A stretch of DNA of 64,000 nucleotides, taken from the NCBI GenBank assembly GCA_963699155.1, contig OY969414.1, forward strand, positions 939,757-1,003,756. The letters run 5' to 3'. Shown here in pieces: positions 36,001 to 39,000 of this stretch. This stretch comes from an uncultured Chlamydiales bacterium. GTDB taxonomy: Bacteria; Chlamydiota; Chlamydiia; Chlamydiales; JAAKFR01. Position 1 is the stretch's first letter. Each line of letters starts with the position of its first letter. The position numbers were made by a program.

Positions 36001-39000
36001 ATGGCGTAGTAGGAGATCAGCTCCATGCTTTCGTCGGCAAATTCAACCGCTTCGTGGCTGGCATAGCTGATACCTAGTTTATAGAGAGCATCTTGGAAGC
36101 CCATAAGTCCCAATCCGATCGCACGGTGGCGCAGGTTGGCCTTTTTCGCCTCTTCGATAGGATAGAAGTTGATGTCGATCACATTGTCGAGCATCCGGAC
36201 AGCGGTGCGGATCGTTGAGGCGAGCAGTTCCCGATCGATTCCCTTCTCATTGATGTGGGCCAGCAAATTAACCGAACCCAGGTTACAGACGGCGGTCTCC
36301 TCAGCAGAGGTATTGAGCAAAATCTCGGTGCAGAGATTGGAGCTATGGACAACCCCTGCATGGTCCTGGGGAGAGCGGATATTCGAGGGATCTTTAAAAG
36401 TTATCCAGGGGTGGCCCGTTTCATAGAGCATGCCGAGCATTTTTCTCCACAAAGAGGCAGCCTCAATCTTTTTGAAAAGCTTGAGTTTTCCCTGCTCCGC
36501 CATCTTTTCATACTCGACATAGCGCTCTTCGAATGCTTTGCCATAAAGATGGTGCAGATCGGGCACATCGTTCGGACTAAAGAGCGTCCACATCCCATTC
36601 TCAACCACCCGCTTCATAAACAGATCGGGGATCCAATTGGCCGTATTCATGTCATGGGTGCGCCGTCTCTCATCTCCCGTATTTTTCCGCAGCTCCAGGA
36701 AATCCTCGATATCCAGATGCCACGTCTCCAAGTAGGCACACATTGCCCCCTTACGTTTACCGCCATTGTGGGCCAAGCCTGCCGTCGTCATATAGGACTC
36801 ATCGCCCTCTACTTTGAGGTCGCAAACGAAGGGTGTGGGAATCAGCGACCTACTTTTTTTGAGTCGGGTGAAGAGATGGTTGCCGCGCACCAGCCAATTG
36901 TATTTAGTGAGCGGCTGGCAACCGACCAATGAGGCGATCTCCTCTACAGCAGGAATGCGGACATCATAGTTCGTCGTTGTGCAATCAAACTGAGTCGTCG
37001 ATCCGTCGGATCGTTTTCCCTCATGTTGATGACGTCGGGTACGGCAATTGCCGGCAGTGGGGATTCCCAAGCGAAGACATTGGTAGCGCACGCCTTCAGC
37101 CAGCTCTCTAGAGGTATTGCAGAAGGTGATCTCCTTGTTTCGGGAAACGTTTCCATCGGTCTCCAAAAGACCTTGTAAGAGTGCCAAAGTCTGTTGACGA
37201 GGGAGATGAGCAAGCCTAGAAGCGATTCTCTTATTCCCTTTGCCATCATAAAGGTCGTCATAGTCAAAGGGAAGCGTATCTGAGCCGCTGCCAATGATAC
37301 GGCCTGTAGTGGCATCTCTGACAGCCCCTCTTCCTGCAGCCCAATGCACCTGTAGATAGTGTTCTCCTCGTCCACTTTCCCAAAAATGGATGCCTCTTTG
37401 GATTAAGTAAGAACGGACAAATTCTAGATGGTTATCTTTTGTGGGATTTCCGGAAATTCCCCACTGCATACCATCTCTAGAGAGATGGCCATCCCCAAGC
37501 AAGATACCGTAGAGGCGCGCCTCTTCGACGCCGATCTCAGCAACAGGCACAACCTCTTTGGGAATGGTCTGAGCAACATAATCTCCTCTCTGAAGTTGCC
37601 CAGCCTCGACCCATTCCCCACGGACTTTCCCCTTGTCTAGCCATTGCATGGTACGCTCTATAGCCTGTTCCATGGGCACCGAGCGGATCGCATAGAAGGG
37701 ATGTCCGGCAGTAACAGAGATCGGATCTATCGCATGTTTGAAGTCCAAAGAGACCATCGCATCGTGCTGATTGTAGAGATAGGTATCCAAAACGGTACGG
37801 TAGGTCCCGCTGGTTCCTAGAACTAAGTCACCAATTTTTACCTCTTGAATGGGTTTGATTCCCTCTGCTGTGTAGATCAATGTTTCTGGCGAAAAACATT
37901 GGTTGACCGCTACGGCGGTGTCGTTGGCAACTTTGAGGAAAGGGATAACGCCTTGGCTCCTGCCGTTGGTCCCTTTGATTTTGGAGCCGGTGGCGCGGAC
38001 GTTGGTCCAGTCGTTGCCGAGGCCGCCAGCCCATTTAGAGAGCTGGGCATCATCGGAAATCACTTTGTAGATATGGTGGAGGTCATCCATGACAGTAGAG
38101 AGATAGCAGGAGCTGAGCTGAGAGTGGGTCGTTCCTGAGTTGAAGAGAGTCGGGGTGGCTGACATGTAGAGGAACTTCGACAGCACATTGTAGAACTCGA
38201 TAGCTCTTTTCTCTTTCTGTTTTCCTTCATTGAGAGCGAGACCCATTGCGACTCTCATCCAGAGGATCTGGGGTGTTTCGAGGCGGCGATCCTCATGATG
38301 GATGAAATAGCGGTCGTAGAGAGTCTGTAGGCCAAGATAGGTGAATAGATGGTCGCGGCTGAGGTCGATGGCGCTAGCGAGCTTATCGAGGTCGAAGCTG
38401 AGCAAGGTGGGGTCGAGCCTTTCCAGTGAGACGGCTGTTTTGAAATAGTCTTTGAAGTACTGACGGTACAATTTGTTCAGATTGGGATGGTAGGCCTCCA
38501 CGCCGATCGTTTCGCGGTAGAGAGTATCGAGCAAAAGATTGGCTGCCACATAGGTGTAGGCAGGTTCAAACTCCACTTTAGCGCGCGCTGCCATCGTCGT
38601 TGCCAGATCGACCTCATGCTCTTTGATCCCATCATAGAAATTGGCGATGGCCAGCTCGACCAGCTCATCGGATGAGGTCTCTTTATGTCCTTTACAGGCG
38701 TGGGCAATTTTTTTTCTCAGCTCCCTTTTTCCCAATTTGTAGGTGGTGCCATCTTTGCGCACGACTGTGAAGAGGTGATCCTTCTCCTCTCCTTCAAATT
38801 GGAGTTCTGCTTCTGGTGCTAGCTCCTCCTCTTCCTTCTTCTCTTTTCTCTCGGCTCGATAGAGAATGAATTCTTTCGCAACTTCGTAATAGCCCTCTAC
38901 CATCAATGCCTTTTCGATGGCATTTTGGATCATGTCGATGCTGACCGTCTCCCCTTTGGCTGCTGTAGACATGGCAAATTCGACAATTCTGTTCGTCAAA

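What a model noticed while it worked through the whole genome (the two positions that open the first line are those of the whole stretch)
36765..37898. Ribonucleotide reductase NrdA intein that lacks the C-extein nucleophile (Gly at +1)
The genome's only RNR alpha subunit (g00920, 974958-979319, minus strand, 1453 aa) is interrupted at the conserved motif NQ|GGKRKG by a 378-aa intein (residues 556-933) with a LAGLIDADG endonuclease. It has Cys1, block B T-x-x-H, block F Asp and C-terminal His-Asn, but the first C-extein residue is glycine, not Cys/Ser/Thr, so the standard branched-intermediate route is impossible. Either the freed Gly amine attacks the Cys1 thioester (the route proposed for type A bacterial intein-like domains), or NrdA works as two cleaved chains. 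The Gly+1 junction is universal in this intein's relatives in several phyla, so it marks a class of inteins.
Evidence so far: Sequence reads AVAVNQ|CFSPETLIY...TTAGLAHN|GGKRKGAMCAY. Intein-free NrdA in 4 of 4 relatives fetched reads AVAVNQGGKRKGAMC, which fixes both junctions. Pfam LAGLIDADG_3 lies inside Ribonuc_red_lgC, and g00920 is the only gene with Ribonuc_red_lg domains. The insert occurs in 26 of 300 scored Chlamydiales genomes at 45-71% identity, but not in the 2 same-genus genomes. In 24 of 24 copies read, Cys1, Asn378 and Gly+1 are kept; His377 is kept in 23 (Ser in 1). Sixty-one columns are invariant, including T63, H66, both LAGLIDADG motifs and D360. Scoring the intein part alone finds 914 NrdA-length proteins at E<=1e-10, including Gammaproteobacteria (cultured Thiothrix nivea, T. 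subterranea), Verru [...]
(Added by a program. Inside this text positions count along the whole contig: contig position 939,757 is position 1 of the stretch shown here. "Call 12" and the like, gene names such as g00115 and contig names such as C1 are that model's own, and its searches are not shown. The text may have been shortened before it was handed on; [...] marks where a part breaks off. The agent that wrote the report below was given it as the finding of a first reader that could run no searches.)

Follow-up and report, generated by a model that had tools for sequence, protein, structure and literature searches.

The report
RNR intein followed by glycine
The only ribonucleotide reductase gene of this chlamydia-like bacterium is interrupted by a real, mobile self-excising protein insert (intein) that is followed by glycine instead of the cysteine, serine or threonine that textbook protein splicing needs, so the enzyme is probably matured by a joining chemistry never shown for a true intein.

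Summary
Observation confirmed. Window 36765-37898 (-) encodes a 378-aa insert in NrdA, AVAVNQ|CFSPETL...GLAHN|GGKRKGAMC. Four of 4 intein-free relatives read AVAVNQGGKRKGAMC. The insert has Cys1, TxxH, two LAGLIDADG motifs, block F Asp and His-Asn. Its model matches PI-SceI (E 8.9e-18). This gene is the genome's only RNR catalytic gene.

Gly+1 holds in 120 of 120 close homologues. It also holds in at least 112 species genomes of six phyla, ten of them cultured isolates. Distant same-site relatives include Ser+1 clades (16 of 53), to which the InBase CroV intein's junction corresponds. No intein column separates Gly+1 from Ser+1. The +1 residue follows the host RNR lineage.

Gly+1 members (Pandoravirus, Cedratvirus) are already tabulated as inteins in Green et al. 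2018, without remark.

Best mechanism (about 0.5, inferred): Cys1 thioester, Asn cyclisation, then aminolysis by the freed Gly amine, as in type A BIL domains. Main rival: a two-chain NrdA. No protein evidence exists.

This scan noted the same feature earlier on other DNA: 66 notes in at least 58 genomes.

The parts
35202..39563 (-). nrdA, class I ribonucleotide reductase alpha subunit precursor (1453 aa from the ATG at 39563; the open frame runs up to a TTG at 39587)
   Evidence: Pfam ATP-cone 1.3e-38, Ribonuc_red_lgN 2.3e-24, Ribonuc_red_lgC 4.2e-188 in two pieces. It is the only PF02867 locus in the genome.
37899..39563 (-). N-extein (555 aa), ending ...DTAVAVNQ. The last Gln corresponds to the loop-2 Gln (human Q288 by my count on the alignment; E. 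coli Q294 by motif and recall)
36765..37898 (-). Intein, 378 aa: HINT splicing domain with a nested LAGLIDADG homing endonuclease
   Evidence: AlphaFold model pLDDT 84.2, pTM 0.83. Foldseek top hits PI-SceI 8.9e-18, TliVMA, PI-PfuI.
37896..37898 (-). Cys1 (block A nucleophile)
   Evidence: Invariant in 120 of 120 and present in 61 of 63 of the wider set.
37701..37712 (-). Block B, T63-A-G-H66 (TxxH)
   Evidence: T63 and H66 invariant in 120 of 120. H66 in 62 of 63.
37488..37514 (-). LAGLIDADG motif 1, LYGILLGDG (Asp136)
   Evidence: D136 in 120 of 120.
37152..37178 (-). LAGLIDADG motif 2, LQGLLETDG (Asp248)
   Evidence: D248 in 120 of 120.
36819..36821 (-). Block F Asp360
   Evidence: 120 of 120; 61 of 63.
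36765..36770 (-). Block G His377-Asn378 (C-terminal splice junction)
   Evidence: 120 of 120; 63 of 63.
36759..36764 (-). Gly+1 Gly+2, the first C-extein residues (codons GGC GGT); no side-chain nucleophile
   Evidence: Gly+1 in 120 of 120 close homologues.
36738..36740 (-). Cys+9 of the C-extein (GGKRKGAMC), the nearest downstream nucleophile. It is also present in intein-free relatives.
   Evidence: Not conserved in the wider Gly+1 set: 7 of 35 have no Cys/Ser/Thr in +1..+10.
35202..36764 (-). C-extein (520 aa plus stop), the rest of the RNR barrel domain
34131..35183 (-). nrdB, RNR small subunit, directly downstream of nrdA (the partner of the mature enzyme)
   Evidence: Ribonuc_red_sm 2.4e-92

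Best explanation
This is a genuine, mobile, class-1-type intein: a HINT splicing domain with a nested LAGLIDADG homing endonuclease. It sits in substrate-specificity loop 2 of the only class I RNR alpha subunit, between the loop's Gln and Gly-Gly. It belongs to a large same-site intein family whose members carry whatever residue the host RNR has after that Gln, which is Gly in most and Ser in some.

The +1 residue has no side chain, so the usual branched (thio)ester intermediate cannot form. The most likely maturation route has four steps:
1. An N-to-S acyl shift at Cys1 makes a thioester, helped by block B Thr/His.
2. Asn378 cyclises, helped by His377, cuts the C-terminal junction and frees the alpha-amine of Gly+1.
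3. That unhindered amine, held next to the thioester by the intein active site and by the already folded RNR halves, attacks the thioester directly (aminolysis).
4. This makes the native Gln-Gly peptide bond and releases the intein, which then acts as a homing endonuclease on intein-free nrdA alleles.

Shown here: the anatomy, the conservation, the mobility signals, the single-copy status and the absence of any conserved substitute nucleophile. Inferred: every chemical step.
For: Anatomy and fold:
- Exact in-frame insert with fixed junctions.
- Model with pLDDT 84.2 whose best PDB matches are intein-endonucleases: PI-SceI 8.9e-18, TliVMA, PhoVMA, PI-PfuI, then I-DmoI.

Both junction chemistries are under selection:
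- Cys1, T63, H66, D360, H377 and N378 are invariant in 120 of 120 homologues of 64-100% identity.
- C1 is kept in 61 of 63, H66 in 62 of 63, and H377 and N378 in 63 of 63, down to about 28% identity.
- A merely tolerated insert would not keep them.

The enzyme must work:
- This is the only PF02867 locus and there is no class III gene in a complete genome.
- The same holds for PF02867 in G127 and G203.
- The site splits the loop-2 Gln from the Arg five residues on. In E. coli these contact the substrate base and phosphates (figure legend; mapping and recall).

The intein is mobile, so it must not kill the host gene:
- It is in 25 of 300 same-order genomes and 0 of 2 same-genus genomes.
- Intein identity is about the same to hosts whose C-extein is 64% identical (42 proteins, mean 66.6%) as to hosts at 79% (61 proteins, mean 67.4%).
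- Both endonuclease Asp residues are invariant.

Gly+1 is not an accident:
- 120 of 120 close homologues.
- 35 of 53 full-length 50%-cluster representatives.
- 112 of 120 pattern loci in species genomes of Chlamydiota, Pseudomonadota, Actinomycetota, Acidobacteriota, Verrucomicrobiota and Chloroflexota, including 10 cultured isolates.
- All four Gly codons are used.

No substitute nucleophile: in 35 Gly+1 representatives the first Cys/Ser/Thr lies anywhere from +2 to +10, and 7 have none in +1..+10.

Precedent: type A BIL domains have Cys1 and His-Asn, lack the +1 nucleophile and do splice. The proposed route is thioester, then Asn cyclisation, then attack by the free amine (Mills, Johnson and Perler 2014, PMC4031507, passages read). 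The only PDB sequence hit of this intein is a BIL domain, 2lwy_A, E 0.0056.
Against: - No protein-level evidence of any kind exists for this intein or any Gly+1 relative in what I could search.
- According to the same review, cleavage products dominate over splicing in type A BIL domains, so aminolysis may be too inefficient for an essential enzyme.
- No intein column distinguishes Gly+1 from Ser+1 members, so there is no visible adaptation to a different chemistry.
- In canonical inteins Asn cyclisation is often coupled to prior branch formation. Here it would have to run uncoupled.
- The last 16 residues of the model (block G and the C-extein) have pLDDT below 50, so the geometry of the Gly amine relative to the thioester could not be judged.
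- Curated sequence models do not call the splicing domain: Pfam Hint families are below their cut-offs, and NCBIfam intein_Nterm scores 14.2 bits against a 24.5 cut-off with no intein_Cterm hit.
Confidence: 0.5

Rival explanations
1. Double cleavage without ligation. The thioester at Cys1 is hydrolysed and Asn378 cyclises. The intein leaves, and NrdA works as two non-covalently associated chains (about 555 and 520 aa) nicked in loop 2.
For: It needs the same conserved residues (Cys1, TxxH, His-Asn), so the conservation data fit equally. A two-chain class Ia NrdA with full activity exists in phage Aeh1 (Crona et al. 2010, PMC3045599, passages read). Cleavage dominates in type A BIL domains.
Against: The Aeh1 split lies elsewhere (between the residues equivalent to E. 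coli Cys439 and Cys462) and needs special tail sequences for assembly; no such tails exist here. The nick would fall between the loop-2 Gln and the Gly-Gly-x-Arg that read out the specificity effector, leaving a carboxylate and an amine in that loop. The same paper states that none of 1200 nrdA sequences were split into multiple coding regions, which argues that a continuous chain is favoured.
Confidence: 0.2
2. A remote C-extein side chain (Cys+9 in this clade; Ser+7 or +8, or Cys+8 or +9, elsewhere) takes the N-extein from Cys1 as a branched intermediate. After Asn cyclisation, a long-range S/O-to-N shift to the Gly+1 amine completes splicing.
For: Cys+9 is present in all 120 close homologues (GGKRKGA[MVL]C or GSGC). 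Most Gly+1 representatives have a Cys/Ser/Thr between +6 and +10.
Against: Cys+9 is equally present in intein-free relatives and in the solved intein-free homologue 5im3, so it is a host feature. The position of the first nucleophile varies from +2 to +10, and 7 of 35 Gly+1 representatives have none in +1..+10. No precedent is known to me.
Confidence: 0.08
3. The insert is not removed. NrdA works with a 378-aa domain in loop 2, or the gene is dead and deoxynucleotides come from the host cell.
For: No protein data exclude it. Chlamydia-like bacteria are intracellular and import many metabolites (general knowledge). One related copy (G235) is broken by stops.
Against: Splice-junction residues are invariant over hundreds of sequences and down to 28% identity. 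The same junction occurs in free-living cultured bacteria (Thiothrix nivea; Arenimonas, Halomonas, Kribbella and others). The exteins are intact and conserved (86-88% identity of the C-extein to same-genus genes). The insert separates the two key loop-2 residues.
Confidence: 0.05
4. Ligation needs a helper: a host or co-transferred factor, or a small thiol, resolves the thioester and joins the halves.
For: It would explain the lack of any intein-internal adaptation.
Against: The intein occurs in six bacterial phyla and in giant viruses, so a common helper is unlikely. The immediate neighbours here are nrdB, an M16 peptidase, an unassigned 289-aa ORF and a CDP-alcohol phosphatidyltransferase; none is an obvious ligase.
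Confidence: 0.05
5. The Gly codon is read or edited as Ser or Cys, or the insert is removed at the RNA level.
For: None found.
Against: All four Gly codons are used at +1 in 12 copies. The insert is an in-frame protein domain with an intein fold. No mechanism of this kind is known in bacteria.
Confidence: 0.01

Closest known systems
CroV (Cafeteria roenbergensis virus) RNR alpha intein, an InBase entry tabulated in Green, Novikova and Belfort 2018 (PMC5784728, Additional file 3; row seen)
   Same: Same insertion site (...YVNQ|CF.P.T...VHN|.G(K/R)RKG), same Cys1/His-Asn ends and same LAGLIDADG architecture. Ser+1 representatives with this junction were found from this intein by phmmer at E 1e-31 to 1e-47.
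   Different: CroV has Ser at +1 (SGRRKG), so it can use the canonical route. I did not align the CroV sequence itself with this intein.
Pandoravirus inopinatum, P. salinus (intein 1), P. dulcis and Cedratvirus A11 RNR inteins, same table
   Same: Same site, with a C-extein starting with Gly (GGGKRKGAF..., GGRRKGAAT...). So they are Gly+1 members already listed as inteins.
   Different: Giant-virus hosts, and a distant branch of the family. The paper's main text has no occurrence of 'glycine' and describes insertion sites as preceding a nucleophile, so the anomaly is not remarked.
Type A bacterial intein-like (BIL) domains, e.g. PDB 2lwy_A
   Same: Cys1, C-terminal His-Asn and no +1 nucleophile. 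They splice through a thioester, Asn cyclisation and attack by the freed amine (PMC4031507). 2lwy_A is the only PDB sequence hit of this intein (E 0.0056, residues 2-70).
   Different: As I recall them, BIL domains have no homing endonuclease and sit in variable, non-essential proteins. This element has a nested LAGLIDADG endonuclease, sits in a conserved active-site loop of an essential enzyme, is absent from orthologues, and is homologous to Ser+1 inteins.
Class 1 LAGLIDADG inteins with solved structures (PI-SceI 1ef0/1vde, TliVMA 7qsu, PI-PfuI 1dq3)
   Same: Fold and domain order (Foldseek E 8.9e-18 to 3.7e-12); blocks A, B, F and G.
   Different: Those have Cys/Ser/Thr at +1. Sequence identity is 12-16%.
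NrdA intein of Azotobacter chroococcum NCIMB 8003 (aa 442-800) and A. vinelandii DJ (Robson et al. 2015, PMC4465626; passage read)
   Same: A LAGLIDADG_3 intein in the class I NrdA of a proteobacterium, at a similar position in the protein.
   Different: I could not fetch these sequences, so the site and the +1 residue are not verified here. Those genomes also have a class II RNR.
Phage Aeh1 split NrdA (PMC3045599)
   Same: An RNR alpha subunit interrupted by a homing-endonuclease element that still yields an active enzyme.
   Different: The gene is split into two genes at another site, has no HINT domain, and is assembled by tail peptides, not by splicing.

Membership tests
Intein (class 1) | In-frame insert in a conserved site of a host protein, absent from orthologues, with host sequence continuous across the site | tested here: met
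   4 of 4 intein-free relatives read AVAVNQGGKRKGAMC.
Intein (class 1) | HINT fold, here with a nested LAGLIDADG endonuclease | tested here: met
   Model pLDDT 84.2. Foldseek PI-SceI 8.9e-18, TliVMA, PI-PfuI. Pfam LAGLIDADG_3 4e-9.
Intein (class 1) | Block A Cys/Ser at position 1 and block B TxxH | tested here: met
   C1, T63 and H66 invariant in 120 of 120.
Intein (class 1) | Block F Asp and block G His-Asn at the C terminus | tested here: met
   D360, H377 and N378 invariant in 120 of 120. HN in 63 of 63.
Intein (class 1) | Cys, Ser or Thr as first C-extein residue (PMC4031507) | tested here: not met
   Gly+1 (GGC). Gly in 120 of 120 close homologues.
Intein (class 1) | Match to curated sequence models of the splicing domain | tested here: inconclusive
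   Pfam Hint_2 25.4 bits (cut-off 28.4), PT-HINT 23.5 (27.7), Hom_end_hint 19.7 (32.1). NCBIfam intein_Nterm 14.2 (24.5), no intein_Cterm hit. Some homologues carry precomputed PF14890 or PF13403.
Intein (class 1) | Mobility by homing: sporadic distribution and an intein tree at odds with the host tree | tested here: met
   25 of 300 same-order genomes, 0 of 2 same genus. Intein identity is independent of extein identity class. Endonuclease activity itself is not testable here.
Intein (class 1) | Excision with ligation of the exteins (protein splicing) | not testable with these tools
   No protein data. No RNA or protein resource was available (one search listed no run).
Type A bacterial intein-like domain | HINT domain with N-terminal Cys, C-terminal His-Asn and no +1 nucleophile | tested here: met
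   Definition from PMC4031507.
Type A bacterial intein-like domain | No endonuclease domain; located in variable regions of non-conserved bacterial proteins (recalled from Amitai et al. 2003, not read here) | tested here: not met
   Nested LAGLIDADG domain. The host site is the conserved loop 2 of an essential enzyme.
Type A bacterial intein-like domain | Sequence relationship to BIL domains closer than to inteins | tested here: inconclusive
   2lwy_A E 0.0056 over residues 2-70 only. But there is full-length homology (E down to 1e-47) to same-site Ser+1 inteins.
Class 3 inteins | No Cys1/Ser1; obligate block F Cys (PMC2807308 abstract) | tested here: not met
   Cys1 is present and invariant. 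The residue before D360 is Cys here but Y/F/H/V/C in relatives.
Class I ribonucleotide reductase alpha subunit (host protein) | ATP-cone, all-alpha and barrel domains over Pfam cut-offs; adjacent small subunit | tested here: met
   An intein-free homologue matches P. aeruginosa-type structure 5im3 at 8.5e-263.

The most novel reading that the evidence does not exclude
A large, ancient and still mobile family of true inteins splices an essential enzyme with no C-extein side-chain nucleophile at all. It would join Gln to Gly by direct attack of the freed alpha-amine on the Cys1 thioester. That would be a fourth mechanistic class of natural protein splicing. It would also mean that the +1 Cys/Ser/Thr rule, used to define and to search for inteins, is not universal.
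Probability: 0.5. Interest if true: 0.9.

Novelty: new variant of a known kind. Interest (0 to 1): 0.78.

Why it matters
Reviews state that every intein needs Cys, Ser or Thr at +1 (PMC4031507). Intein finders and engineering rules build on that.

Here an essential, single-copy enzyme depends on an intein that breaks the rule. The same junction is kept in at least 112 bacterial species genomes and in giant viruses.

If these inteins ligate, three things follow:
- They are a natural system for scarless protein ligation at glycine, which protein engineers have long wanted.
- They link inteins mechanistically to bacterial intein-like domains.
- Surveys that require a +1 nucleophile under-count inteins. 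For example, Novikova et al. 2016 list 0 of 21 Chlamydiae species with inteins.

If they only cleave, class I RNR can work when nicked in its specificity loop, which would itself be unexpected.

Cultured carriers exist, so the question is directly testable. They include Thiothrix nivea DSM 5205, Arenimonas daejeonensis KACC 14631, Kribbella, Amycolatopsis sacchari DSM 44468 and Halomonas.

Tried and rejected
- **RNA evidence:** The look-up of sequencing runs for window 36500-38200 listed no RNA holder.
- **Phage collection:** tblastn of the intein found only 9 distant matches in other host proteins (22-36% identity) and no RNR relative.
- **Organism names for distant relatives:** The listing of cluster members gave none for 10 representatives.
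- **Azotobacter:** I could not fetch the NrdA sequence, so its +1 residue is unverified.
- **Gorbalenya 1998, 'Non-canonical inteins' (PMC147447):** not held; I have not seen it.
- **Supplements:** Novikova 2016 supplement file 1 was not searchable. The held table marks Thiothrix nivea '+' for inteins but does not say in which protein.
- **Literature searches** 9, 14, 15, 28, 49, 50 and 66, plus passages in PMC5784728, PMC4760082, PMC3653736, PMC2814812, PMC5050341 and bioRxiv 10.1101/2025.01.02.630785, gave no remark on a natural Gly+1 intein. This covers only the held library.
- **Structure:** the model's C-terminal strand and C-extein are of low confidence and no coordinates are returned, so I could not measure the amine-to-thioester distance.
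- **Considered and rejected:**
  - Mis-placed junction: excluded.
  - Class 3 mechanism: Cys1 is present and there is no conserved block F Cys.
  - Recoding of the Gly codon: excluded.
  - The 225-aa antisense ORF at 36255-36932 (+): it lies inside nrdA on the other strand, I did not test it, and I take it for a mechanical ORF.
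Full report
**1. What is in the sequence**

On the minus strand, window 35202-39587 is one open frame. 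It gives 1461 aa from the first TTG, and 1453 aa from the ATG at 39563. Pfam finds two ATP-cone stretches, the RNR all-alpha domain, and the RNR barrel domain in two pieces. LAGLIDADG_3 lies between the pieces.

Window 36765-37898 (-) translates to 378 residues, CFSPETLIY...TTAGLAHN. The flanks are ...DTAVAVNQ and GGKRKGAMCAYLET.

I fetched nrdA from four intein-free relatives, two of the same genus and two of the same family. All four read ...DTAVAVNQGGKRKGAMC.... The insert is therefore exactly these 378 residues and the first C-extein residue is Gly. No alternative register is possible, because the residues at the two junctions do not repeat. The DNA reads CAA|TGT at the N junction and CAC AAT|GGC GGT at the C junction.

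**2. It is a real intein with a homing endonuclease**

The landmarks are:
- Cys1
- T63-x-x-H66 (block B)
- LYGILLGDG and LQGLLETDG (the two LAGLIDADG motifs, Asp136 and Asp248)
- Asp360 in block F
- His377-Asn378

An AlphaFold model was built from 12 chlamydial copies. It has mean pLDDT 84.2 and pTM 0.83. Its best PDB matches are intein-endonucleases:
- PI-SceI, E 8.9e-18
- TliVMA and PhoVMA inteins
- PI-PfuI, the Pyrococcus RNR intein
- PI-TkoII (2cw7, identified by recall)
- then free-standing I-DmoI

Curated sequence models are weak. Pfam Hint families fall below their cut-offs. NCBIfam intein_Nterm scores 14.2 bits against a cut-off of 24.5, and there is no C-terminal model hit. The only PDB sequence hit is a bacterial intein-like domain, 2lwy_A, E 0.0056, over residues 2-70.

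**3. The host gene is needed**

The genome is one contig of 2,399,326 bases and is scored 100% complete. PF02867 matches only this frame. The class III family PF13597 is not found, while the control genomes ring. Two other intact carriers, G127 and G203, likewise have PF02867 only in the intein-bearing frame. nrdB follows directly downstream.

An intein-free same-genus NrdA aligns to structure 5im3 at 8.5e-263 and to human RRM1. By my count on that alignment, the insertion falls after human Gln288. By motif and recall this is E. coli Gln294, in specificity loop 2.

In E. coli, Q294 contacts the substrate base and R298 contacts its phosphates (bioRxiv 10.1101/2021.07.31.454598, figure legend read). 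The intein thus separates these two loop-2 residues by 378 aa. This makes an unprocessed but functional enzyme unlikely. That is an inference.

**4. How general is Gly+1**

Scoring the intein part alone finds 916 NrdA-length proteins at E<=1e-3. In all 120 listed (64-100% identity) the junctions read NQ|CF... and (A/V)HN|GGKR(K/L)G. Cys1, T63, H66, D136, D248, D360, H377 and N378 are invariant, and 62 columns are invariant in all.

An exhaustive profile-free search of 1.84 billion cluster representatives gives 1945 hits at E<=1e-3. Of the 150 returned, 53 have both junctions resolved:
- Gly+1 in 35
- Ser+1 in 16
- Ala in 1 odd short protein
- Cys in 1 protein of a different host family

One further row was dropped because it did not end in Asn.

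All the Gly and Ser members sit at the same RNR site, (N/D)Q|...HN|(G/S)G.

Of these loci, 112 have the full block F/G and RNR context, one more is a truncated true junction, and 7 are chance matches.

The record titles cover Chlamydiota, Gamma-, Beta- and Alphaproteobacteria, Actinomycetota, Acidobacteriota, Verrucomicrobiota and Thermomicrobiales. They include these cultured isolates:
- Nocardiopsis halophila DSM 44494
- Actinosynnema sp. ALI-1.44
- Chromohalobacter sp. 296-RDG
- Arenimonas daejeonensis KACC 14631
- Halomonas sp. 25-S5
- Kibdelosporangium banguiense DSM 46670
- Allokutzneria sp. A3M-2-11 16
- Kribbella sp. CA-245084
- Amycolatopsis sacchari DSM 44468
- Lentzea sp. HUAS TT2

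Thiothrix nivea DSM 5205 and T. subterranea are named.

**5. Gly+1 is a state of the family, not a separate lineage**

I built a FastTree tree of 63 inteins, the 53 representatives plus 10 close ones, rooted on the Cys+1 outlier. Gly+1 lies on both sides of the deepest split. Ser+1 forms two clades of 2 and 14 members, with supports 0.987 and 0.997, nested among Gly+1 branches.

Fitch parsimony needs 2 Gly/Ser changes. Shuffled labels need a mean of 14.3 and a minimum of 8. Parsimony infers Gly at the root. Relatedness inflates that contrast; the point is only that at least two switches occurred.

No alignment column is 75% or more conserved within each group yet different between them.

For the Ser+1 host P0178, I classified 120 RNRs: the 119 other listed relatives plus P0178 itself. 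Nine had no motif match. Among the intein-free ones, the residues after the loop-2 Gln are:
- SG in 49
- AG in 48
- NG in 4
- TG in 3
- GG in 1
- QG in 1

All 5 intein-bearing ones there have SG. The intein-free relatives of the present gene have GG. So the +1 residue is the host's own and is not imposed by the intein.

**6. Mobility**

The intein is in 25 of 300 scored same-order genomes, own genome included, and one genome was not scored. By family the counts are 4/24, 5/24, 9/24 and so on. It is in 0 of 2 genomes of the same genus.

Among 103 homologues with both exteins aligned, intein identity to the query is much the same in two host groups:
- 61 long, chlamydia-type hosts: intein mean 67.4%, C-extein mean 78.8%
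- 42 shorter, proteobacterial-type hosts: intein mean 66.6%, C-extein mean 63.8%

Several proteobacterial-type hosts carry inteins that are 70-72% identical, closer than most chlamydial ones. Together with the invariant endonuclease Asp residues, this fits recent homing across phyla.

**7. Mechanism**

The canonical route needs a +1 side chain, Cys, Ser or Thr (Mills, Johnson and Perler 2014, PMC4031507, passages read). Gly has none.

No conserved substitute exists. In 35 Gly+1 representatives the first Cys/Ser/Thr lies between +2 and +10, and 7 have none in +1..+10. The Cys+9 of this clade is also present in intein-free genes.

All four Gly codons are used at +1, which excludes a recoding trick.

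Cys1, block B and His-Asn are strictly kept, so thioester formation and Asn cyclisation are both under selection.

The simplest way to obtain a working RNR from these two reactions is the route proposed for type A bacterial intein-like domains. There, the amine freed by Asn cyclisation attacks the N-terminal thioester. Gly offers the least hindered amine. The two RNR halves, which form one barrel, should hold the ends together. These last two points are inference and recalled chemistry.

I put this explanation at about 0.5.

The main rival is double cleavage giving a two-chain NrdA, at about 0.2. Its precedent is phage Aeh1. There, however, the split is at another site and special tails are required (PMC3045599).

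The other rivals are:
- a remote nucleophile (0.08)
- a tolerated or dead insert (0.05)
- a helper factor (0.05)
- RNA-level explanations (0.01)

About 0.1 remains for something not thought of.

Evidence against the favoured route:
- BIL domains mostly cleave rather than splice.
- No adaptation is visible in the intein.
- The model's block G is of low confidence.
- There is no protein evidence at all.

**8. What is known**

The same-site CroV intein (InBase) has Ser+1.

Gly+1 members are already listed as inteins in Additional file 3 of Green, Novikova and Belfort 2018. They are Pandoravirus inopinatum, P. salinus intein 1, P. dulcis (all GGGKRKGAF...) and Cedratvirus A11 (GGRRKGAAT...). The main text never mentions glycine and speaks of sites 'preceding a nucleophile'.

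Robson et al. 2015 describe an NrdA intein in Azotobacter chroococcum and A. vinelandii. I could not verify its junction.

Novikova et al. 2016 list 0 of 21 Chlamydiae species with inteins, and mark Thiothrix nivea as intein-positive without naming the protein in the held table.

Seven full-text searches and the passages read in six further papers gave no remark on a natural intein without a +1 nucleophile. This holds only for the held library. InBase and Gorbalenya 1998 were not available.

**9. Earlier notes of this scan**

The same feature has been noted repeatedly on other DNA. There are 66 notes in at least 58 genomes, covering giant viruses, a phage split intein and bacteria. One chlamydial case is marked 'what was seen stands'.

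Those notes gave me the CroV and Azotobacter leads, which I checked. They are not independent evidence.

**10. Verdict**

The element is a true mobile intein of a known same-site family, in the state that lacks the defining +1 nucleophile. It sits in the only RNR of this genome.

It is a new variant of a known kind. It is widespread, catalogued in part, and mechanistically unexplained. It can be tested directly in cultured carriers or by expression in E. coli.

Noticed in passing
window 34131-35183 (-): The adjacent nrdB (Ribonuc_red_sm 2.4e-92) reads EEAVHTHTF at residues 123-131. Phe stands where, as I recall the class Ia motif, the radical-bearing Tyr sits. This is the pattern known from the Chlamydia trachomatis class Ic (Mn/Fe) R2. 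I did not check it against an alignment.
   Followed up: partly
G235:C1:1149201-1151948 (loci L021, L023): One same-order genome carries the intein-bearing nrdA in several frames with stops (1 TGA and 1 TAG in the intein, 1 TGA in the barrel; pieces 66-300, 297-355, 360-467, 456-523). It has no other PF02867 locus. This is either a decaying gene or indel errors in a single-contig assembly.
   Followed up: partly
L012:1477-2655 (+) (genome G131): This copy has Ser instead of the penultimate His (ALASN|GG) and Ala instead of the catalytic Asp in LAGLIDADG motif 1 (LLGAGH). It keeps Cys1, Asn and Gly+1. It may be a lineage whose endonuclease is decaying.
   Followed up: no
proteins P0296 (894 aa) and P0311 (1209 aa): Ser+1 relatives in a giant-virus-like RNR lineage carry much shorter inserts at the same site: about 160 aa in P0296 and about 145 aa in P0311, by the junction positions listed. 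These are mini-intein forms without the endonuclease.
   Followed up: no
proteins P0287-P0405: Among intein-free RNRs close to host P0178, the residue after the loop-2 Gln varies widely (S 49, A 48, N 4, T 3, G 1, Q 1). So this loop position is less constrained than the invariant GG of the bacterial clade suggests. No intein was seen in the AG, NG or TG alleles of this sample.
   Followed up: partly
proteins P0033 (2297 aa), P0064, P0084, P0118 (about 1700 aa): Some NrdA homologues with this Gly+1 intein are 250-850 aa longer and carry extra Hint and Intein_splicing Pfam hits. They probably hold one or two further inteins at other sites.
   Followed up: no
window 39789-40658 (-): A 289-aa ORF just upstream of nrdA, with a hydrophobic N-terminal part, has no Pfam family at E<=1e-3.
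   Followed up: no
window 31168-34137 (-): A PreP-like M16C peptidase gene (M16C_assoc 4.4e-62, PreP_C 2.1e-18) overlaps the end of nrdB by 7 bases (34131-34137).
   Followed up: no
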